8,274 nt of DNA from the IMG/VR virus record IMGVR_UViG_3300014523_000046; one strand, given 5' to 3'. Below the pieces are notes generated by a model. The model was given only the letters and a program-made list of their open reading frames with translations. It was not told where the DNA came from and did not search any database. Positions 1 through 7,372 of the stretch are shown here, piece after piece. The position numbers and the translations under genes were made by a program. Position 1 is the stretch's first letter. Each line of letters begins with the position of its first letter. The stretch is from a virus (Duplodnaviria; Heunggongvirae; Uroviricota; Caudoviricetes).

Positions 1-208
1 TCGCTCCATGCGTTTGCTCTTCACTTACGGCTAAAAATATAACGTCAAATCACTCAGCATGAAAGAGTTAAAGATTCAGCGCGTTTCCCTTACATAATCT
101 GTCGTTTGTATTCTCATCAGGCATACCGGAAAGACTAGGTATTGTCACACAACCAATACCATCGACAATCGAGAGTTATACCTATTCGGTAATGTTTAAA
201 TATAACAA

Positions 209-236
209 AACCCCGTAAAAACGAGGTTTATGGGTA
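209..236 (-). terminator. Weak candidate intrinsic terminator downstream of the Gns-family gene
   Basis: On the minus strand an imperfect hairpin (plus-strand arms around 207-215 and 222-230, one G-U pair) is followed by a T-rich tail; it lies about 55 nt past the stop of the 290-463 gene. Confidence 0.3.
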
Positions 237-289
237 ATTTGTATTGTTGAATAGCATCTGATGAGAAATTGATGCTAATACTAAACAGA

Positions 290-463
290 CTAGATTAAAT
301 CAATCTTGATATCATAGCTTTCAAGACCAGTCATTTTTTCCCGTGCAGTAAACTGGATACTGGTAACTTCTTTCCCGGTCTTTTTCTTAAGCTCAATGAT
401 TTTTTTTGTTATATATTCAGAAATATCTGCTTCTGTTTTTGTTTTTAACTCTTCAATGTTCAT
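290..463 (-). CDS. gnsB: GnsA/GnsB family protein (57 aa)
   Basis: Translation MNIEELKTKTEADISEYITKKIIELKKKTGKEVTSIQFTAREKMTGLESYDIKIDLI matches the short Gns family (MNIEELK...TGKEV...FTAREKMTGLESYD) as I recall it. The track ORF begins at 556, but the first in-frame ATGs are at 466 and 463 with AAGAGGAA just upstream, giving the 57-aa length typical of Gns. Stop TAG at 290-292. Confidence 0.7.
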   Translation of the reverse strand: MNIEELKTKTEADISEYITKKIIELKKKTGKEVTSIQFTAREKMTGLESYDIKIDLI

Positions 464-635
464 CATTTCCTCTTTTAGTCTGTTATGACTTTCCTGGTAC
501 ACAGTAGTGTCAATTATATGGAGCAAACGTATAAAAGATAAGATGAAACATCGCAATAATCAACATACGACGGTCTAAATTTCACACAAACAGATAAAGA
601 TGATTATCATTTATTATCAATGCATTAGAATCAAA

Positions 636-866
636 TCAATTCAAGAGTCTCATTGCTGCTTCCAGAATTTCTTCTGAAGTTACATGTCGATCCGCTGCTA
701 CATAAATGACTTTATGATCTCCGGTCAGAGATGGAAACCCTGCAGCCATTACAGTGAGGTGTGTTGTTTCGCCATTTGGATATTCACGCATGATGGTGTT
801 AACTCCGGTCATCACTGGCACTACCATTGCTGGTTCAGAGTTAAAAAAAACTATTATTTTTTTCAT
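636..866 (-). CDS. Hypothetical small protein (76 aa), occupying the position between gns and csp paralogs
   Basis: ORF in the track is 636-905, but the codon at 905 is GTG sitting directly against a terminator T-run; the first ATG is at 866 (MKKIIVFFNSEPAMVV...). Weak SD. Sequence has a plausible beta-alpha-beta-like composition but I cannot assign a family. Confidence 0.45.
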   Translation of the reverse strand: MKKIIVFFNSEPAMVVPVMTGVNTIMREYPNGETTHLTVMAAGFPSLTGDHKVIYVAADRHVTSEEILEAAMRLLN

Positions 867-910
867 AATGTTACCGTAATATGTGAGTATCCATCGACTA
901 GACACTAAGC

Positions 911-930
911 AAAAAAGCTCCCGAAGGAGC
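911..930 (-). terminator. Intrinsic terminator (GC stem, UUCG loop, U6 tail on the minus strand)
   Basis: Plus strand aaaaaa GCTCC cgaa GGAGC; on the minus strand this is a 5-bp GC-rich stem with a UUCG tetraloop followed by TTTTTT (911-916). It lies 8 nt after the stop (939-941) of the small Cys-rich ORF and about 200 nt after the cspI-like stop. Confidence 0.5.
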
Positions 931-938
931 CTTCATTT

Positions 939-1193
939 TCACTTTCTTAAATCTAACGATAGACGGCTAACATTTAAGTATTGTGAAATATTATCAAATG
1001 TAATCATCATTGATTTACAAAAGATACATTTTGCCCCGAAAGGATTCCTGTCAGAAACATCAAAAGATGATGTTCTATACTGAGAACCATGGCAACACGG
1101 GCATCTAAAGTGAATATGGTTTGTAATATTATCTACCTCAAAGTGCCACAACATGAACAGCCGCGGGGCCTTTAGGTCCGTTCTCAATACCAA
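939..1193 (-). CDS. Candidate small Cys-rich (zinc-ribbon-like) protein, start uncertain
   Basis: ORF contains C-P-C-C ... 21 aa ... C-I-F-C (CxCC...CxxC), a pattern unusual for a random ORF, and ends 8 nt before a terminator hairpin. The codon at 1193 is TTG with AGGAAG 7 nt upstream; the first ATG is at 1154. Either start overlaps the 3' end of the cspI-like gene (stop 1138) in another frame, which lowers confidence. Confidence 0.3.
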
Positions 1194-1350
1194 ATTCGAC
1201 TTCCTGATTCTCAGTTAACGTTTTGAAATCGTTGCTCTGAATAGCTGAGAAATGGACAAACACATCTTTGCTACCATCTTTCGGCGTGATGAAACCAAAA
1301 CCTTTTTCAGGGTTAAACCATTTCACTAAACCAGTCATTTTGTTAGACAT
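1138..1350 (-). CDS. cspI: Cold-shock protein, CspA family (CspI-like, 70 aa)
   Basis: Translation [70 protein letters not shown] carries the RNP1/RNP2 cold-shock-domain motifs (KGFGFI, VFVHF). Two tandem ATGs at 1353 and 1350; the second gives the canonical MSNKMTGL N-terminus. AAAGGTAATA SD-like sequence upstream, typical of csp genes. Stop TGA 1138-1140. Confidence 0.9.
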
Positions 1351-1353
1351 CAT

Positions 1354-1713
1354 TATTACCTTTTGAAGAAGTTAGCCCTTGGGCAGAATGGTCCGAAAAA
1401 AAATATCAGAGAGAAAAACCAACAAGGAAATCTCAAGAGGTACAAATAATAAAATTATAACAATGACTGCTTCAGATAATTTTGTAACAAACCAGAACAC
1501 CATTAACGCATGATTAACCAACCATAGCAAGGATTACTTTTGTAAAGAAAAACACACGAATGAAACAATAGCTTTATTTATTAATAAAACGTGTCATTCT
1601 GTCTAATGACCTTTTATCTTACCCTTAAGATTTCAAGGATTTTGACTCATGGAAGAGTCCTTTTTATTTAAATTTCACATTCAGCGCTAAAAATAATCCG
1701 ATTTAATATTAAT
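1354..1713 (-). promoter_or_regulatory. AT-rich upstream region of the cspI-like gene (promoter plus probable long 5' UTR)
   Basis: A 360-bp non-coding AT-rich gap between the Rz stop (1714) and the csp start. CspA-family genes characteristically have long structured 5' UTRs. I did not locate an exact cold-box match by eye. Confidence 0.4.
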
Positions 1714-2741
<1,028 letters not shown>

Positions 2742-2854: not shown

Positions 2855-3115
2855 ATGGATTACACAAATCTACCTAAACAAACTTTTGCTGATTTAATCG
2901 CACTCAGGCAAGCAGTCGTAGCTCTAATCAACTTGTTGCCGGAGAAGGAAAAGGAATTAGTTAAAGCGCTTCTTAACAGAACTGCCGCCGATTTTTCATC
3001 ATATCCACTGACAGATGACCTTGCGGACCTTCCTGAATTAATTGCAGCGTCCGCCAATAAGCTTACTGAAGAGATTTACCCTCCTCAAAAATCTTCACAA
3101 AATTCCTGCGAGTAA
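2855..3115 (+). CDS. Candidate small acidic protein (86 aa), convergent with and overlapping the 3' end of the DUF1327-like gene
   Basis: ATG at 2855 preceded by AGAGG at about 6 nt spacing. Lies in the 320-bp gap between the endolysin start and the upstream gene. Its 3' end overlaps the minus-strand gene by about 53 nt. No recognisable family. Confidence 0.25.
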   Translation: MDYTNLPKQTFADLIALRQAVVALINLLPEKEKELVKALLNRTAADFSSYPLTDDLADLPELIAASANKLTEEIYPPQKSSQNSCE

Positions 3116-3614
3116 CTTCAATGCAATAATCGTAAAACGCCGCAAACTGCTCATCGCGGCGTTTTTTTTCATCTTCAGAAGGAATCAGCACCGACAATTT
3201 TTTATTCAGATCAGCGACGCTGCCCTCCAGTTTTTCAATGGGCGATTCAATATCATCTTTTTCTGACCGCAATGCCGTCGGTGGCGTCTTCAGAGAACCA
3301 GTAATTCTTCCCGGTAGCTTTCCTTTGTAGGTTATCCACACATTCTGCGCCTCTAAAATTATGGGGCGCTTTTCCGGCGACTGCTCATCCCCTTCACATA
3401 ACCCGGCAGCAACATCCAGGAAGACCTGTCTGATGCTCCTTCTGGCTGCTGCCTCATAAAACTCCAGCGCGGCACCTTCAACACGGTCCAGCGAGATGTC
3501 CAGGTCAAAAATTTCACCGTCAAAGTGTTTTTTGTCCCGTAAGGCTACAGTTACCGCCACTTTATTCTCAAAATTGCGAACTCCTTTCACAACCAGTTCA
3601 TAGTCTTGAGTCAT
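3063..3614 (-). CDS. DUF1327 (YdfR-like) prophage protein with about 100-aa C-terminal extension (183 aa)
   Basis: N-terminal about 80 aa (MTQDYELVVKGVRNFENKV...DGEIFDLDISLDRVEGAALEFYEAAARRS) match my recollection of the YdfR/DUF1327 family that sits between holin and endolysin in Qin-like prophages. The track ORF begins at a TTG (3635); the first ATG is at 3614, just after the holin stop. Stop TAA 3063-3065. Confidence 0.65.
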   Translation of the reverse strand: MTQDYELVVKGVRNFENKVAVTVALRDKKHFDGEIFDLDISLDRVEGAALEFYEAAARRSIRQVFLDVAAGLCEGDEQSPEKRPIILEAQNVWITYKGKLPGRITGSLKTPPTALRSEKDDIESPIEKLEGSVADLNKKLSVLIPSEDEKKRRDEQFAAFYDYCIEVTRRNFVKIFEEGKSLQ

Positions 3615-3618
3615 TGGA

Positions 3619-3834
3619 TTACTCTCTTCTCGCAACCTTACGCCTGTCTTCTTTAATCTTGAAATAAAGGTTTGTCAGATACGTCAGCATGCCAAATACC
3701 AGACTACCCAATACACCTATTGCCGCCCACTGTGAGGGCGTGACTTTATCGAGCAACTGTAAAAACCAGTAGCCAGCACTGCCTGCAGAGGTGCTGTAGG
3801 CGATGCCCGTTGTTAACTTATCCATGGATTTCAT
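3619..3834 (-). CDS. Class II holin, phage-21 S-like pinholin (71 aa) with dual-start motif
   Basis: Within track ORF 3619-3918, ATG at 3834 with strong SD (GGAGGTGAGGCT-ATG) gives [71 protein letters not shown]: two TM segments, a charged C-terminus, and the MKSM dual start (Met1/Met4) typical of S21. Confidence 0.9.
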
Positions 3835-4024: not shown

Positions 4025-4738
4025 CTAAGAAAATCTTGATAAATATTGGTGCGGAGGCACACCAAAATATCCTCTAAAAACACTTACAAAATATGATGCA
4101 TTGTCATACCCGCATATTCCCGCCACCTTGCCGACAGTATGGTTACTGTAGATCAATAATCTTTGCGCCATCATCATTCGTTCTTCAAGAATTAATTTAC
4201 TAAACGATAATCCTTCGTTTTTTAATTTTCTTTTTAACAAACTCTCGCTCATATATAATCTTGAAGATATATCACAAAGTCTCCATGACGCTGAGATATC
4301 CGAGTGAATAATAGCCTTAACTTTACAACCTAAGCTATTAAGACTTCCGAACAAAAAACTTTGCACTATTTTCTCTGAAGATAAGACAGCAAGACATGCA
4401 AGTGATATTTGATTTCTAACTACATCCACGGTTTTGCTATCACAATTCAAGCATGCAACCAAGTTCCTTAACAATGAAAAATCTTCACATTCTACTATCA
4501 AGTATGACGGATAAAACCTTCTTACAGAAAAAGGTGAGAGTGTGTAGTTTTTAAAGAAATCATTAACTGTTTTCTCCTCAACATCTACGATCATTAGATG
4601 ATCTGTATTTGACGAAAAAAGATCTTTTAAATTGTATTCAATGAGGACAGCATTTCCTTTTTTAAACAAAATATCTTCTTTACCAATTCGGACAACAAAC
4701 GAGTTCAACACCAAAATGATAGAACATATGTATGGCAT
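4025..4738 (-). CDS. AraC/XylS-family transcriptional regulator (237 aa), AT-rich horizontally acquired type
   Basis: C-terminal about 100 aa carry the double helix-turn-helix of AraC/XylS proteins (...SESLLKRKLKNEGLSFSKLILEERMMMAQRLL...VGKVAGICGYDNASYFVSVFRGYFGVPPHQY). The N-terminal domain is not recognisable. The codon at 4747 is GTG and lies inside the SD; ATG at 4738 with AGGTGG 5 nt upstream is the likely start. Very low GC compared with the lysis genes. Confidence 0.85.
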   Translation of the reverse strand: MPYICSIILVLNSFVVRIGKEDILFKKGNAVLIEYNLKDLFSSNTDHLMIVDVEEKTVNDFFKNYTLSPFSVRRFYPSYLIVECEDFSLLRNLVACLNCDSKTVDVVRNQISLACLAVLSSEKIVQSFLFGSLNSLGCKVKAIIHSDISASWRLCDISSRLYMSESLLKRKLKNEGLSFSKLILEERMMMAQRLLIYSNHTVGKVAGICGYDNASYFVSVFRGYFGVPPHQYLSRFS

Positions 4739-5144
4739 ATTATCCACCTGATATCATTGGGGTTACACCAGGTAAGTATAGGTGGAAAATCAATATTCGC
4801 CAGTTCAACAATAAGGAAAATCTCATTGCATCACAACTATAAAACCATGTGTTTAACTCACAAAAAACAAATCATTAAACTAATCTGTTATATTATAATA
4901 GCTGCGTGCAATAATAATATTATATGCTCTTAATATTCACTTGAAATATCTTCATATAAAAACAGATTGAATAAAATCTTTTGGGGCTGGTATGTTTACC
5001 AACATTAAATTGCATCTCAATGTTTTCTTTAGCGTGAACAGGATTTTTATACAAACTGACACTATGGGCATCATAGCGTAGTTTTTACGATTGTAAATAT
5101 CCTGCATACAGGAACTCATCACTTTCAGATGATATCGCATACAG
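4739..5144 (-). promoter_or_regulatory. AT-rich intergenic region upstream of the AraC-like gene (probable promoter and silencing region)
   Basis: About 400 bp of strongly AT-rich non-coding sequence with many A/T tracts, between the DUF523/DUF1722 stop and the AraC start. The only ORF here (4952-5140) looks spurious. Typical of xenogeneic promoter regions; no specific hexamers assigned. Confidence 0.35.
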
Positions 5145-6104
5145 TTAATTCACCATCAGTCTTAGAGCCAGTTCTTCCGGATAGGGATCGAAGTAATTCT
5201 GTGTAAGCAAGTAATCATTAGGATACTCACCCAGATAATGCTTCAGCAGAGTCAACGGCGCAAGAAGAGGCAATGTGCCAAAGCGATAGTTAAGTATAAC
5301 CTCGCTCAACTCTTTACGCTGGCGTGTACTTAAGTAATTACTAAAATACCCCTGTATATGCATCAGCACATTCGTGTGATTTTTACGTGATGCTGGTTTT
5401 CTGAGAATCGCCATCAGATTATCACGATACACCTCAAAGTATGATTCAAGGTCCGCCCACTCGTGTATTGCAGCCACAAATGGTCCCATATCTTTATAGC
5501 CTGCCTGGCTATGCGCCAACAACTGAAGCTTATAACGACTATGAAAAGCTAATAACTCTCTTCTTGATAATTTCTCCTTGTAAAGATGATTGAGCTCATG
5601 CAAAGCAAAAACTCTTTCAATAAAATTCTCACGAAGCACTGGATCATGTAATCGCCCATCCTCTTCAACCGGTAGCCAGGAAAACTTTTCCATCAAAGTG
5701 CTCGTAAATAGTCCCACTCCATCTTTACGACCTCGATTACCATTTTCATCATAGACACGCACGCGCTCCATGCCACAGCTGGGAGATTTAGCACAAACCA
5801 CAAACCCCGATACATCCTTTAATTTGTCCATATAAGAACGACTAAACTCTGTCATTCTCTCTGTCACATCCTCATTCTGGTCGTGGCTGAAACACATCCG
5901 TATATTTCCTTGCTTCGAGCGCACAAGTCGTAGAGCAGGACGCGGAACTGGCAGCCCTATAGCCATTTCCGGACATACTGGTCTGAATGTTACCCATTCC
6001 ACTAATTTGTCCATTAAAAAGTCATCTCTTTTGTGACCACCATCAAAACGAACAGCAGAACCGCCCAAACAACCGCTGATCCCAATCACAGGTTTTTTTA
6101 TCAT
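5145..6104 (-). CDS. DUF523 (TudS-like Fe-S) + DUF1722 (YbgA-like) fusion protein (319 aa)
   Basis: N-terminus MIKKPVIGISGCLGGSAVRFDGGH with Cys at about 12, 44 and 104 (SPSCG) matches the three-Cys [4Fe-4S] ligand pattern of DUF523/TudS-type proteins. The C-terminal half is helical and YbgA/DUF1722-like. ATG at 6104 preceded by AAGGGGGAGGAA. Stop TAA 5145-5147. Confidence 0.8.
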   Translation of the reverse strand: MIKKPVIGISGCLGGSAVRFDGGHKRDDFLMDKLVEWVTFRPVCPEMAIGLPVPRPALRLVRSKQGNIRMCFSHDQNEDVTERMTEFSRSYMDKLKDVSGFVVCAKSPSCGMERVRVYDENGNRGRKDGVGLFTSTLMEKFSWLPVEEDGRLHDPVLRENFIERVFALHELNHLYKEKLSRRELLAFHSRYKLQLLAHSQAGYKDMGPFVAAIHEWADLESYFEVYRDNLMAILRKPASRKNHTNVLMHIQGYFSNYLSTRQRKELSEVILNYRFGTLPLLAPLTLLKHYLGEYPNDYLLTQNYFDPYPEELALRLMVN

Positions 6105-6296
6105 TTCCTCCCCCTTGACTAATTCATTAACACATAAACTTTGTAGTGCACGGACTAAATTGCCTTTCTGGCTTCATCACTGACAATTTTTCTGTTATTG
6201 ACTATTCCTAATATAGTAGGAAAGTTCTTTAAGTGATCGGTCGTACTCATCTATCTTTCATACTTACTCTCAACTATCAAAAGTACAGGATTTATT

Positions 6297-6821
6297 ATGA
6301 AGTTATGGCCTGTGTTGACTGGCATTGCACTCTCTTTCACTCTTATAGCATGTAAGGCCCCGACACCACCTAAAGGTGTGCAGCCGATTACAAATTTTGA
6401 CGCCAACCGCTACCTCGGAAAATGGTATGAAATAGCTCGCCTCGAGAACTGGTTCGAACGTGGTCTGGAACAGGTCAGCGCTACTTATGAAAAACGGAAC
6501 GACGGAGGGATTCGCGTACTTAACCGTGGATACGATCCAACGAAAAACAAATGGAGCGAGAGCGAAGGTAAAGCATACTTTACTGGAGATACTAAAACTG
6601 CAGCGTTGAAAGTTTCGTTTTTTGGCCCCTTCTATGGTGGCTATAATGTAATCAAGCTGGATGATGAGTATAAGTATGCTCTTGTCAGTGGTCCGAACAG
6701 AGAATACCTATGGATTCTGGCAAGGACCCAAACTATTCCAGATAATGTAAAAGCAGACTATGTGCGTACCGCTCAAAAGTTGGGATTCAATGTCAATGAA
6801 CTATTATGGGTTAAACAATAA
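6297..6821 (+). CDS. Bacterial lipocalin Blc-like outer-membrane lipoprotein (174 aa)
   Basis: Signal peptide with lipobox L-I-A-C (MKLWPVLTGIALSFTLIACKAPTPPKG) and lipocalin core motifs shared with Blc (NFDANRYLGKWYEIAR, KVSFFGPFYGGYNVI, YLWILAR). SD AGGA 6 nt before the ATG. Plus strand, opposite to the surrounding phage genes. Confidence 0.9.
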   Translation: MKLWPVLTGIALSFTLIACKAPTPPKGVQPITNFDANRYLGKWYEIARLENWFERGLEQVSATYEKRNDGGIRVLNRGYDPTKNKWSESEGKAYFTGDTKTAALKVSFFGPFYGGYNVIKLDDEYKYALVSGPNREYLWILARTQTIPDNVKADYVRTAQKLGFNVNELLWVKQ

Positions 6822-6977: not shown

Positions 6978-7355
6978 TTATTTCGAACAATCAGCATCCA
7001 TCTCCAATCGGAGATCCAACACCATCAGCATGCCCTCCACTACGCCCTCAGCTTTCTGGAGCATCCTGCCAACCCAACAATCAGATCGCCCATGCTTACG
7101 TGCAAGCGCCATAAAAGTCATGCCGCCGACATAATAGTCCACCAATAAATCATGTAAATCGCTGTTGTTTTTTTTCAGGCGAGCCATACATTCACAAATG
7201 ATCATCGCGTCATCGTCACAGCATTGCGGACGAGATCTTACTTTTGAAGGAATTAATCCCTTAAAACCGGCGGCAATGGACGACCAGGTCACATCTTCAT
7301 GATTATTAGCCGCCCATGCCCCCCAACGCTCAAGAACCATCTGAATATCACGCAT
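6978..7355 (-). CDS. Phage antitermination protein Q, short QuuD-like type (125 aa)
   Basis: Translation from ATG 7355 ([26 protein letters not shown]...[32 protein letters not shown]) matches my recollection of the approximately 127-aa Q-like antiterminators of DLP12-type prophages (Phage_antitermQ family). The track start at 7370 is a TTG; ATG 7355 has GGAG 8 nt upstream. Followed by a terminator, as expected for Q. Confidence 0.8.
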
Positions 7356-7372
7356 CAACTTACTCCACAAAA

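What the first reader, a model, noticed from the sequence alone, without database searches (positions are those of the whole stretch)
290..1713. Cold-shock accessory cluster downstream of the lysis cassette (csp, Cys-rich small ORF, hypothetical, gns)
The order csp, small ORF, small ORF, gns mirrors the paralogous cold-shock clusters of E. coli, but the proteins here are diverged from the K-12 versions as I recall them, suggesting an independently evolving phage-carried copy. The cluster is bracketed by terminator hairpins (911-930 and a weaker one near 209-236) and a 360-bp AT-rich csp upstream region.
Basis: partly seen in the sequence, partly recalled or inferred. Interest (0 to 1): 0.4.

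Follow-up and report, generated by a model that had tools for sequence, protein, structure and literature searches.

The report
Known Qin-prophage cold-shock gene cluster
This stretch is the well-known cspI-ynfQ-ynfN-gnsB cold-shock accessory cluster of Qin-type lambdoid prophages of E. coli, found in about 40% of complete E. coli genomes, so it is real but ordinary.

Summary
The four genes are real, on the minus strand: cspI (1138-1350), ynfQ (939-1127, ATT start), ynfN (636-866) and gnsB (290-463), directly downstream of the lysis genes rrrQ and rzpQ.

Window 1-2300 is 100% identical to E. coli PSJ-07. It has megablast matches, nearly all at 90% identity or more, in 2163 of 5426 complete E. 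coli genomes, and is 99% identical to phages 2H10, mEp460 and HannyBb. It is an allele of the K-12 Qin cluster, not a diverged copy:
- DNA is 95% identical.
- CspI is 70/70 identical, YnfQ 59/62, GnsB 53/57.
- YnfN is 48/51 identical over the K-12 part. It is intact here (76 aa) and frameshift-truncated in K-12.

The AT-rich region upstream of cspI holds the cspI promoter and 145-nt leader (59/60 and 142/145 identical to K-12). It matches Rfam's cspA thermoregulator at 112.8 bits against a threshold of 78.

The hairpin at 911-930 does not bracket the cluster. It is an internal terminator between ynfQ and ynfN.

Cold induction, RNA-thermometer behaviour and expression from the prophage are already published for the K-12 and Tritos alleles. 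Verdict: already known, low interest.

Minor extras: the csp, ymcF-like, ynfN gene order and the ATT start of the ymcF-like gene are conserved across Enterobacteriaceae.

The parts
1138..1350 (-). cspI, a CspA-family cold-shock protein of 70 aa. An extra in-frame ATG at 1351-1353 could give a 71-aa form.
   Evidence: Pfam CSD 108 bits. 70/70 identical to K-12 CspI, and 70/69/79% identical to CspA/B/G. All 9 nucleotide differences from K-12 are synonymous. RefSeq calls it cspI in the identical genome.
1351..1495 (-). cspI 5'UTR of 145 nt, taking the K-12 start site from memory. It is a cspA-type RNA thermometer leader. Features: cold-box remnant GGUUUG 1488-1493, upstream-box hairpin GCC-CAAG-GGC 1375-1384, Shine-Dalgarno AAGG 1359-1362. 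The downstream box AUGACUGGUUUAGUG lies in the CDS at 1324-1338.
   Evidence: Rfam RF01766 hit at 1092-1508(-), 112.8 bits against a gathering score of 78. 142/145 identical to the K-12 cspI leader. Alignment with the cspA/B/G/I leaders. The predicted long stem-loop pairs the Shine-Dalgarno and AUG, consistent with the 37 C form described in PMC13271884.
1502..1530 (-). cspI promoter: -35 TTGCTA at 1525-1530, 17-nt spacer, TG at 1509-1510, -10 GTTAAT at 1502-1507.
   Evidence: Aligns column for column with the region just upstream of the cspA, cspB and cspG leaders: TTGC and TTAAT are invariant in the five-way alignment. Assigning these as the -35 and -10 hexamers rests on my recollection of the cspA promoter. 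59/60 identical to K-12 cspI. The consensus scanner did not call it.
1531..1713 (-). AT-rich spacer between the rzpQ stop and the cspI promoter. It probably includes a UP-element-like A/T tract.
   Evidence: GC is 30.3% over 1354-1713. 140/158 identical to K-12. The function of this part is inferred.
939..1127 (-). ynfQ, a YmcF-like CxxC...CxxC small protein of 62 aa. It has an ATT start 10 nt after the cspI stop, and the stop codon lies inside the UGAGG Shine-Dalgarno-like motif.
   Evidence: Pfam PF23641 at 112 bits. 59/62 identical to K-12 YnfQ and 68% to YmcF. The ATT start and 10-nt spacing are conserved in 25 of 37 enterobacterial loci.
911..933 (-). Intrinsic terminator T1 after ynfQ: AAGGCUCC-UUCG-GGAGCUU followed by a U run.
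   Evidence: Fold energy -14.8 kcal/mol, z-score -2.6. Identical in K-12. A hairpin plus U run at the same position, but with different sequence, occurs in Citrobacter and in Raoultella/Klebsiella.
898..936 (-). Remnant of ynfR. It is 12 codons here and 21 in K-12, and the ORF overlaps terminator T1.
   Evidence: Sequence comparison. RefSeq marks it 'too short'. There is no ATG at this position in Citrobacter.
636..866 (-). ynfN, intact 76-aa form. Function unknown.
   Evidence: PHROG 3425, E 1e-55, full length. 48/51 identical to the K-12 51-aa remnant. K-12 lacks one T of the T8 run at 843-850. Homologues occur across Enterobacteriaceae. AF2 model pLDDT 87 with no fold relative.
464..635 (-). 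ynfN-gnsB intergenic region. It holds a perfect TATAAT at 513-518 (minus strand), a possible gnsB promoter.
   Evidence: Read directly from the sequence. The TATAAT is conserved in K-12. The scanner did not call it because the -35 is weak. The promoter is an inference.
290..463 (-). gnsB, GnsA/GnsB family, 57 aa.
   Evidence: Pfam PF08178 at 114.5 bits. 53/57 identical to K-12 GnsB and 63% to GnsA. Matches the PDB GnsA entries 4XO1 and 4XO2 at E 8e-20.
208..229 (-). Terminator T2 after gnsB: AAACCUCG-UUUU-UACGGGGUUU followed by a U-rich tail.
   Evidence: Called by the scan. Fold energy -11 kcal/mol. Identical in K-12.
1714..2211 (-). Context: rzpQ (Rz-like, DUF2514) with embedded rzoQ (1764-2018). 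This is the last lysis gene upstream of the cluster.
   Evidence: Pfam DUF2514 at 132.5 bits. 90% identical to K-12 RzpQ. RefSeq annotation.

Best explanation
**What it is.** The span is the cspI-ynfQ-(ynfR remnant)-ynfN-gnsB accessory ("moron") block of a Qin/mEp460-type lambdoid prophage of E. coli. It sits in the late region between the lysis genes and the terminase genes.

**How it most likely works.**

1. cspI is transcribed from its own sigma-70 promoter: -35 at 1525-1530 and an extended -10 at 1502-1510. The transcript carries a 145-nt leader.
2. At 37 C the leader folds with the start of the coding region into a long stem-loop. This hides the ribosome-binding site, and the mRNA is unstable.
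3. At about 15 C or below the leader refolds, the mRNA is stabilised and CspI is made. CspI is an RNA chaperone. This behaviour is shown for the K-12 allele, which is 142/145 identical in the leader. It is inferred for this window.
4. ynfQ, a small zinc-ribbon-like protein, is co-transcribed. It is translated from an AUU codon 10 nt after the cspI stop, probably by translational coupling (inferred).
5. Most transcripts end at terminator T1 (911-933). Some read through into ynfN, more so in the cold and possibly helped by the antitermination activity of Csp proteins (inferred).
6. gnsB probably also has its own promoter and ends at T2 (inferred). GnsB raises unsaturated fatty acid content when overproduced.

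**Net effect (inferred).** The block is a prophage-carried package for low-temperature adaptation of RNA and membrane. It is expressed from the lysogen independently of the lytic programme.
For: **Identity**
- Window 1-2300 is 100% identical to E. coli PSJ-07, where RefSeq annotates rzpQ, cspI, ynfQ, ynfN and gnsB.
- 2163 of 5426 complete E. coli genomes carry a match.
- It is 99% identical to phages 2H10, mEp460 and HannyBb.
- It is 95% identical in DNA to K-12 Qin, with the same gene order.
- Protein identities to K-12 are 100/95/94/93%.

**Prophage context**
- PSJ-07 has a complete lambdoid prophage, from integrase to tail fibre, next to rspB.

**Leader**
- The Rfam cspA thermoregulator scores 112.8 bits against 78.
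- The promoter is 59/60 and the UTR 142/145 identical to K-12 cspI.
- The promoter hexamers, the upstream-box hairpin, the Shine-Dalgarno and the downstream box align with cspA/B/G/I.
- The predicted long stem-loop pairs the Shine-Dalgarno and AUG.

**Published function of the K-12 and Tritos alleles**
- The cspI 5'UTR is an RNA thermometer (PMC13271884).
- YnfR-SPA is strongly cold-induced (PMC6001520). The ynfR ORF runs through T1, so transcription passes the hairpin in the cold.
- cspI, ynfQ and ynfN are co-induced 6.5-, 5.9- and 5.8-fold by AZT, with near-equal SspA dependence. ynfQ is listed there as cold-shock induced (PMC11228462).
- cspI and ynfN are transcribed 93- and 27-fold above prophage background in the Tritos lysogen and are classed as morons (PMC9928086).
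- gnsA and gnsB overexpression rescues a growth defect at low temperature, and gnsA expression raised the unsaturated fatty acid fraction in that study. For gnsB the paper cites Sugai 2001 for the same effect (bioRxiv 10.1101/2024.03.27.586906).

**Selection**
- All 9 cspI substitutions relative to K-12 are synonymous.
- GC is 34.6% for the cluster against 49% for the lysis genes, which fits moron origin.
Against: - Nothing here measures expression in this strain. Every functional statement is transferred from the K-12 or Tritos alleles.
- The cold box is only partly present. About 16 nt present in cspA/B/G are missing, as they are in K-12 cspI.
- Equilibrium folding at 10 C did not reproduce an open ribosome-binding site.
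- The promoter scanner called neither the cspI promoter nor the putative gnsB promoter.
- The functions of YnfQ and YnfN are unknown. The YnfN model has no fold relative.
- Because the block lies inside the late transcription unit, it is also transcribed during lytic growth. A role for the phage rather than the lysogen is therefore not excluded.
- The Tritos cluster matches this window at 93.5% identity and carries the 51-aa, K-12-like ynfN, so it is not the same allele as this window.
Confidence: 0.85

Rival explanations
1. The block mainly serves the phage lytic cycle. It is transcribed as part of the Q-antiterminated late operon, between Rz and the terminase genes. CspI as an RNA chaperone and antiterminator, and GnsB as a membrane-lipid modifier, would then support late gene expression, lysis or assembly at low temperature.
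For: - The block has the same orientation as Q, holin, lysozyme and Rz, and lies directly between them and the terminase genes.
- The cluster is kept in plaque-forming phages (PMC9928086).
- Csp proteins are described as able to act through antitermination (PMC11228462).
Against: - The block has its own promoter and two terminators.
- It is expressed in uninduced lysogens and in the defective K-12 Qin prophage.
- The same csp, ymcF-like, ynfN order is mostly found outside a phage context: an Rz gene lies upstream in only 9 of 49 loci.
- This rival is not exclusive of the main explanation.
Confidence: 0.15
2. The block is a toxin-antitoxin or defence module. GnsB would be the toxin, as Pfam and NCBI name the family. 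YnfN or YnfQ would be its partner, stabilising the prophage or excluding other phages.
For: - Pfam names PF08178 the 'GnsA/GnsB toxin', and RefSeq calls the gene an 'addiction module toxin'.
- ymcE-gnsA is listed among E. coli toxin-antitoxin pairs (PMC8484670).
- The cold-shock domain also matches retron Se72 effector and PADLOC CSD_V profiles. The retron profile score is below its cutoff; PADLOC profiles carry no curated cutoff.
Against: - There is no YmcE homologue here or in any of the 49 related loci.
- ynfN and gnsB are 172 nt apart rather than overlapping.
- PADLOC has no hit for GnsB, YnfN or YnfQ.
- gns is absent from 31 of 49 ynfN loci.
- gnsA and gnsB overexpression rescues growth rather than killing cells.
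- CspI is a bona fide CspA-family member, 100% identical to K-12 CspI.
Confidence: 0.05
3. The span is ordinary chromosomal DNA at a prophage boundary, not phage cargo.
For: Paralogous chromosomal clusters exist, such as cspG-ymcF-ymcE-gnsA. Most ynfN loci in other genera show no Rz gene upstream.
Against: - In the identical genome the block is flanked by lysis genes on one side and by terminase, portal and capsid genes on the other. It lies well inside a complete prophage.
- It is present inside the sequenced genomes of phages 2H10, mEp460, HannyBb and Tritos.
Confidence: 0.01

Closest known systems
E. coli K-12 cryptic prophage Qin: gnsB (b1550), ynfN (b1551), ynfR (b4749), ynfQ (b4724), cspI (b1552), downstream of rzpQ and rrrQ
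   Same: - Same genes, order, strand and spacing, and the same position after the lysis genes.
- 95% DNA identity. The cspI promoter and leader and both terminators are almost identical.
- CspI is 100% identical.
   Different: - ynfN is intact here (76 aa). K-12 has a 1-nt deletion in a T run, which leaves 51 aa.
- ynfR is cut to 12 codons here.
- An extra ATG sits immediately before the cspI start codon.
- The surrounding prophage is complete here and decayed in K-12.
- Between Q and the holin this prophage carries blc, ybgA and an AraC-type gene, where K-12 has cspB, cspF and ynfU.
E. coli chromosomal paralogue cspG-ymcF-ymcE-gnsA (b0990, b4723, b0991, b4517)
   Same: - Same order: csp, small CxxC protein with an ATT start 10 nt after the csp stop, a middle gene, then gns.
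- CspG is 79% identical, YmcF 68% and GnsA 63%.
- DNA homology covers csp plus ymcF (75% over 360 nt) and gns (73% over 180 nt).
   Different: - The middle is not homologous. ymcE (17% identity to YnfN) overlaps both neighbours in a 194-nt gap. Here ynfN, a terminator and a 172-nt spacer fill 475 nt.
- The paralogue is not in a prophage.
Functional lambdoid phages mEp460, 2H10, HannyBb (99%) and Tritos, PhiR42_1 (93.5%)
   Same: They carry the same cluster after Rz, near the right end of the genome. In Tritos, cspI and ynfN are published as morons expressed in the lysogen.
   Different: Tritos carries the K-12-like allele with a 51-aa ynfN, and has cspB upstream of the holin.
cspA mRNA thermosensor (Rfam RF01766) and the cspA/B/G cold-shock leaders
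   Same: A long leader, an extended -10 promoter, the upstream-box hairpin, the Shine-Dalgarno context and the downstream box. The Rfam score is above the gathering threshold.
   Different: The leader is shorter (145 nt) and lacks about 16 nt of the cold-box region present in cspA/B/G. From memory of Wang et al. 1999, cspI is induced only over the lowest temperature range, 15-10 C; I could not read the paper.

Membership tests
Qin-type prophage cspI-ynfQ-ynfN-gnsB cluster | Gene content, order and orientation cspI > ynfQ > ynfN > gnsB, directly after rzpQ | tested here: met
   ORFs and Pfam hits. The K-12 annotation shows the identical layout. RefSeq names in the 100% identical genome.
Qin-type prophage cspI-ynfQ-ynfN-gnsB cluster | Nucleotide-level homology along the whole span, including intergenic regions | tested here: met
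   95% mean identity over 1.56 kb against K-12 Qin. 2098 E. coli records cover at least 80% of window 1-2300.
Qin-type prophage cspI-ynfQ-ynfN-gnsB cluster | Location inside a lambdoid prophage at the Qin site (rspB side) | tested here: met
   In PSJ-07 the integrase lies next to rspB, and phage genes flank the cluster on both sides. This holds for the identical genome. The origin of the window itself is not given.
CspA family (cold-shock domain proteins); orthologue CspI | Single cold-shock domain of about 70 aa with the RNP1 (KGFGFI) and RNP2 (VFVHF) motifs | tested here: met
   Pfam CSD 108.3 bits against 27. Both motifs are visible in the translation. 70/70 identical to K-12 CspI. The NCBIfam CspG equivalog scores 137.8, below its cutoff of 144, as expected for CspI rather than CspG.
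CspA family (cold-shock domain proteins); orthologue CspI | Induction on temperature downshift | not testable with these tools
   Reported for K-12 cspI (Wang et al. 1999, cited in PMC13271884). The paper itself could not be read.
cspA-type RNA thermoregulator (RF01766) | Covariance-model score at or above the Rfam gathering score | tested here: met
   112.8 bits against 78, E 6e-29, full model 1-428.
cspA-type RNA thermoregulator (RF01766) | Complete cold box at the 5' end of the leader | tested here: not met
   Only GGUUUG is retained. About 16 nt present in cspA/B/G are absent, as in K-12 cspI.
cspA-type RNA thermoregulator (RF01766) | Upstream-box hairpin, Shine-Dalgarno context and downstream box | tested here: met
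   GCC-CAAG-GGC aligns with GCC-GAAA-GGC. AAGGTAATA and ATGACTGGTTTAGT are conserved.
cspA-type RNA thermoregulator (RF01766) | Temperature-dependent switch between a closed and an open ribosome-binding site | tested here: inconclusive
   The MFE at 37 C gives the long closed stem-loop. Equilibrium folding at 10 C does not open it. The switch was shown experimentally for the K-12 allele (PMC13271884).
GnsA/GnsB family (PF08178) | Profile match above the curated cutoff over the full length | tested here: met
   114.5 bits against 27, residues 1-54 of 54. 93% identical to GnsB. PDB GnsA at E 8e-20.
Type II toxin-antitoxin pair (ymcE-gnsA type) | Adjacent or overlapping cognate partner gene homologous to YmcE | tested here: not met
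   tblastn with YmcE finds nothing in the related loci and matches only the cspG locus. YnfN is 17% identical to YmcE.
Type II toxin-antitoxin pair (ymcE-gnsA type) | Toxicity of GnsB that is neutralised by the partner | not testable with these tools
Published overexpression rescues growth at low temperature.
YmcF-like small proteins (PF23641) | Profile match above the cutoff, and the two CxxC pairs | tested here: met
   112 bits against 27. CPCC at residues 9-12 and CIFC at 34-37 are visible. 95% identical to YnfQ.
Prophage moron | Own promoter and terminator, not needed for the phage cycle, and composition different from neighbouring genes | tested here: met
   The promoter is conserved with the cspA family. 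Terminators are present. GC is 34.6% against 49.2% for the lysis genes. Lambda-like relatives such as N15 and Fraca match only the Rz part of the query.
Prophage moron | Expression in the uninduced lysogen | not testable with these tools
   Shown for the Tritos allele in LF82 (PMC9928086) and for K-12 Qin.

The most novel reading that the evidence does not exclude
The csp, ymcF-like, ynfN gene order could be a conserved three-gene cold-shock unit of Enterobacteriaceae whose second and third members have never been studied.

- The csp gene carries a cspA-type leader.
- The ymcF-like gene has a conserved AUU start exactly 10 nt after the csp stop.
- A terminator hairpin follows the ymcF-like gene in a subset of the loci (at least 18 of the 37 that have one).
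- ynfN comes last.

The internal terminator would act as a Csp-sensitive attenuator. CspI accumulating in the cold would melt it and switch on ynfN, and perhaps gnsB, giving a feed-forward cold switch. The AUU start would limit YnfQ synthesis to particular conditions. YnfN would represent a fold with no solved relative.
Probability: 0.15. Interest if true: 0.4.

Novelty: already known. Interest (0 to 1): 0.1.

Why it matters
It matters little as a discovery. The cluster is annotated in K-12 and in thousands of genomes. cspI cold induction and its RNA thermometer are published, and cspI and ynfN have been described as prophage morons.

The check is still useful in three ways:
- It corrects the idea that this is a diverged, independently evolving copy.
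- It shows that K-12's ynfN is a truncated remnant of a 76-aa gene that is intact here.
- It shows that YnfQ/YmcF and YnfN are consistently linked to cold-inducible csp genes across Enterobacteriaceae. That points to two uncharacterised small proteins as candidates in cold adaptation.

Tried and rejected
**YnfN function**
- Pfam, NCBIfam and PADLOC gave nothing.
- PHROGs gave only families of unknown function.
- The afdb50 library was not available.
- No fold assignment is possible.

**YnfQ**
- The sequence search against the PDB gave only chance-level zinc-site matches, E at least 0.01.

**Wang et al. 1999 (PMC93551)**
- The paper is not held in the library. The 145-nt UTR and the 15-10 C induction range rest on my memory of it and on its citation in PMC13271884.

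**Folding at 10 C**
- Equilibrium folding did not reproduce the open cold conformer. This is not taken as evidence against the thermometer, because equilibrium folding need not capture the switch seen by DMS probing of transcripts made at 10 C.

**Promoter scan**
- The number of hits was no higher than in shuffled sequence. The scan missed the homology-supported cspI promoter, so it was not used.

**Readings rejected**
- YmcE-type antitoxin: rejected, no homologue.
- ynfR as a conserved gene: rejected. It is truncated here and has no start codon in Citrobacter.
Full report
**1. What is in the sequence**

- A 70-aa cold-shock domain protein at 1138-1350 (Pfam CSD, 108 bits).
- A Cys-rich ORF whose conserved part matches Pfam YmcF-like (112 bits).
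- A 76-aa ORF at 636-866 with no Pfam family.
- A 57-aa GnsA/GnsB family protein at 290-463 (114.5 bits).

Immediately upstream on the same strand are an Rz-like DUF2514 gene (1714-2211), a phage lysozyme (2208-2741) and a P21-type holin (3619-3834).

Two details need correcting.
- The Cys-rich gene is 939-1127 with an ATT start, as RefSeq annotates it. The 84-aa TTG-initiated ORF in the mechanical list is not the gene.
- The hairpin at 911-930 lies between the second and third genes, so it does not bracket the cluster.

**2. Identity**

Window 1-2300 is 100% identical to the chromosome of E. coli PSJ-07, where RefSeq names the genes rzpQ, cspI, ynfQ, ynfN and gnsB.
- 2163 of 5426 complete E. 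coli genomes have a match: 376 at 99% or more, 258 at 95-99% and 1522 at 90-95%.
- Phages 2H10, PhiR63_1, HannyBb and mEp460 match at 99%. Tritos and PhiR42_1 match at 93.5%.
- In PSJ-07 the cluster lies inside a complete lambdoid prophage. That prophage has integrase, excisionase, dicB, a cI/cro-like pair, hokD, rem, ydfU, Q, the lysis genes, the cluster, then terminase, portal, capsid and tail genes. It is integrated next to rspB, the side where K-12 Qin ends.

**3. Comparison with K-12**

K-12 Qin has exactly the same layout: gnsB, ynfN, ynfR, ynfQ, cspI, rzpQ/rzoQ, rrrQ. The two sequences are 95% identical over 1.56 kb, intergenic regions included.

| Protein | Identity to K-12 Qin | Identity to the cspG-locus paralogue |
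|---|---|---|
| CspI | 70/70 | 79% (CspG) |
| YnfQ | 59/62 | 68% (YmcF) |
| YnfN | 48/51 over the K-12 part | 17% (YmcE) |
| GnsB | 53/57 | 63% (GnsA) |

- DNA homology with the cspG locus covers csp plus ymcF and gns, but not the middle.
- All nine cspI substitutions relative to K-12 are synonymous.

This is an allele of the Qin cluster, and the K-12 copy is itself prophage-borne.

Real differences from K-12 are small.
- K-12 lacks one T in the T8 run at window 843-850. This truncates ynfN to 51 aa. The 76-aa form here is the common one: PHROG 3425 is a full-length 76-aa profile, and the large clusters P0001 and P0003 are full length.
- The 21-codon ynfR of K-12 is cut to 12 codons here.
- A T-to-G change creates a second ATG directly before the cspI start.

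**4. The upstream region**

The region 1354-1713 has 30.3% GC. Rfam's cspA thermoregulator matches 1092-1508(-) at 112.8 bits against a gathering score of 78.

Alignment with the K-12 cspA, cspB, cspG and cspI upstream regions shows:
- a conserved -35 (TTGCTA, 1525-1530);
- an extended -10 (TG at 1509-1510, GTTAAT at 1502-1507);
- a partial cold box, with only GGUUUG at 1488-1493 retained and about 16 nt of the cspA/B/G box absent, as in K-12 cspI;
- the upstream-box hairpin at 1375-1384;
- the Shine-Dalgarno at 1359-1362;
- the downstream box at 1324-1338.

The promoter is 59/60 and the 145-nt leader 142/145 identical to K-12 cspI. The 145-nt length is from my memory of Wang et al. 1999, which I could not read. 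The position fits 7 nt downstream of the -10.

ViennaRNA predicts a long stem-loop spanning the leader and the first codons that pairs the Shine-Dalgarno and AUG. This matches the 37 C conformer that PMC13271884 describes for cspB, cspG and cspI. The cold conformer was not reproduced by equilibrium folding.

**5. Transcription units**

Terminator T1 (AAGGCUCC-UUCG-GGAGCUU plus U run, -14.8 kcal/mol) follows ynfQ. Terminator T2 (208-229) follows gnsB. Both are identical in K-12.

The ynfQ ATT start lies 10 nt after the cspI stop, and that stop sits inside a UGAGG Shine-Dalgarno-like motif. This argues for co-transcription and coupling.

Published K-12 data fit partial read-through of T1.
- YnfR-SPA, whose ORF runs through the hairpin and U run, is strongly cold-induced (PMC6001520).
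- cspI, ynfQ and ynfN respond almost identically to AZT, with near-equal SspA dependence (PMC11228462).

A perfect TATAAT at 513-518(-) may give gnsB its own promoter. That is an inference.

**6. Function**

- CspI belongs to the CspA family. PMC11228462 describes cold-shock proteins as nucleic acid chaperones that melt RNA and DNA secondary structures and can influence gene expression through antitermination.
- gnsA and gnsB overexpression rescues a growth defect at low temperature, and gnsA expression raised the unsaturated fatty acid fraction in that study. For gnsB the paper cites Sugai 2001 for the same effect (bioRxiv 10.1101/2024.03.27.586906).
- In the LF82 lysogen of Tritos, cspI and ynfN are transcribed 93- and 27-fold above prophage background. 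They are listed there as morons (PMC9928086).

The best-supported reading is a moron block that gives the lysogen cold-adaptation functions. Because it lies in the late operon it is also transcribed in lytic growth, so a benefit to the phage at low temperature remains possible.

The toxin-antitoxin reading suggested by the family names has little support.
- There is no YmcE homologue.
- PADLOC has no hit for GnsB, YnfN or YnfQ.
- ynfN and gnsB are 172 nt apart.

**7. Wider comparison**

YnfN homologues form a small family of 52 clusters. They are found in 49 species-level genomes of Enterobacteriaceae.

Counts in those 49 loci:

| Neighbour of ynfN, same strand | Loci |
|---|---|
| csp gene upstream | 38 |
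| YmcF-like ORF directly upstream | 37 |
| gns downstream | 18 |
| Rz gene upstream | 9 |

- Rfam finds a cspA-type leader upstream of ynfN in 17 of 20 diverse loci.
- The YmcF-like ORF starts with ATT in 25 of the 37 loci that have one, with ATC in 3 and with ATG in 5. In the ATT loci the start usually lies exactly 10 nt after the csp stop.
- A hairpin plus U run occupies the ymcF-ynfN gap in Escherichia, Citrobacter and Raoultella/Klebsiella, with different sequences. The ynfR ORF is not conserved.
- The YnfN model (pLDDT 87, five strands and a C-terminal helix) has no significant structural relative.

These points are modest additions to what is annotated. They do not change the verdict.

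**8. Verdict**

The feature is the known Qin-type cspI-ynfQ-ynfN-gnsB cluster. Novelty: already known. Interest: about 0.1.

Noticed in passing
window 4025-6821: Between the Q antiterminator (6978-7370) and the holin, this prophage carries three cargo genes. They are an AraC-type HTH regulator (4025-4747, -), a YbgA-family 2-thiouracil desulfurase/DUF1722 protein (5145-6104, -) and a Blc-like lipocalin (6297-6821, +). K-12 Qin has cspB, cspF and ynfU at this position. This looks like a second moron slot with different cargo.
   Followed up: partly
window 2855-3635: The ydfR gene between holin and lysozyme is disrupted. A 190-aa ORF (3063-3635, -) has DUF1327 only in its N-terminal part, and RefSeq marks it as incomplete. 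An oppositely oriented 86-aa ORF (2855-3115, +) with no family sits in the replaced segment.
   Followed up: no
window 1124-1137, and loci L009-L057: The ymcF/ynfQ-like gene starts with ATT in 25 of 37 enterobacterial loci, with ATC in 3 and with ATG in 5. In the ATT loci the start is usually exactly 10 nt after the csp stop, and that stop lies within U(G/A)AGG. A rare non-AUG start conserved across genera suggests regulated or coupled translation.
   Followed up: partly
window 843-850: The T8 run (minus strand) near the start of ynfN is T7 in K-12. This frameshifts the gene, so the K-12 'YnfN' of 51 aa is the C-terminal remnant of a 76-aa protein that is intact here and in most relatives.
   Followed up: yes
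window 1348-1353: A T-to-G change relative to K-12 creates ATGATG at the cspI start. A 71-aa CspI with an extra N-terminal Met is possible, with Shine-Dalgarno spacing of 5 nt instead of 8 nt.
   Followed up: no
window 898-936: ynfR is a published cold-induced small protein of K-12. Here it is only 12 codons, it has no start codon in Citrobacter, and it overlaps the terminator hairpin. The conserved feature looks like the hairpin rather than the peptide.
   Followed up: partly
window 1764-2018: An Rz1-type lipoprotein ORF (rzoQ equivalent, lipobox LTSC) is embedded in the +1 frame of rzpQ. It has no Pfam hit.
   Followed up: no
window 1644-1659: A terminator-like hairpin with a T run on the plus strand, antisense to the cluster, lies between rzpQ and the cspI promoter. 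One stem position is mismatched in K-12. Its purpose is unknown.
   Followed up: no
L005 3971-5228: In an unidentified enterobacterial contig near icd, the csp, ymcF-like, ynfN trio is preceded by a second, more distant YnfN-like ORF (MKNVLVFFNGKP...). There is no gns.
   Followed up: no
L011 and L036: Contigs labelled as a Veillonella parvula MAG and as a Chryseobacterium sp. carry enterobacterial csp-ymcF-ynfN sequence at 93% and 59% identity. This is probably mis-binning or contamination in those assemblies.
   Followed up: no
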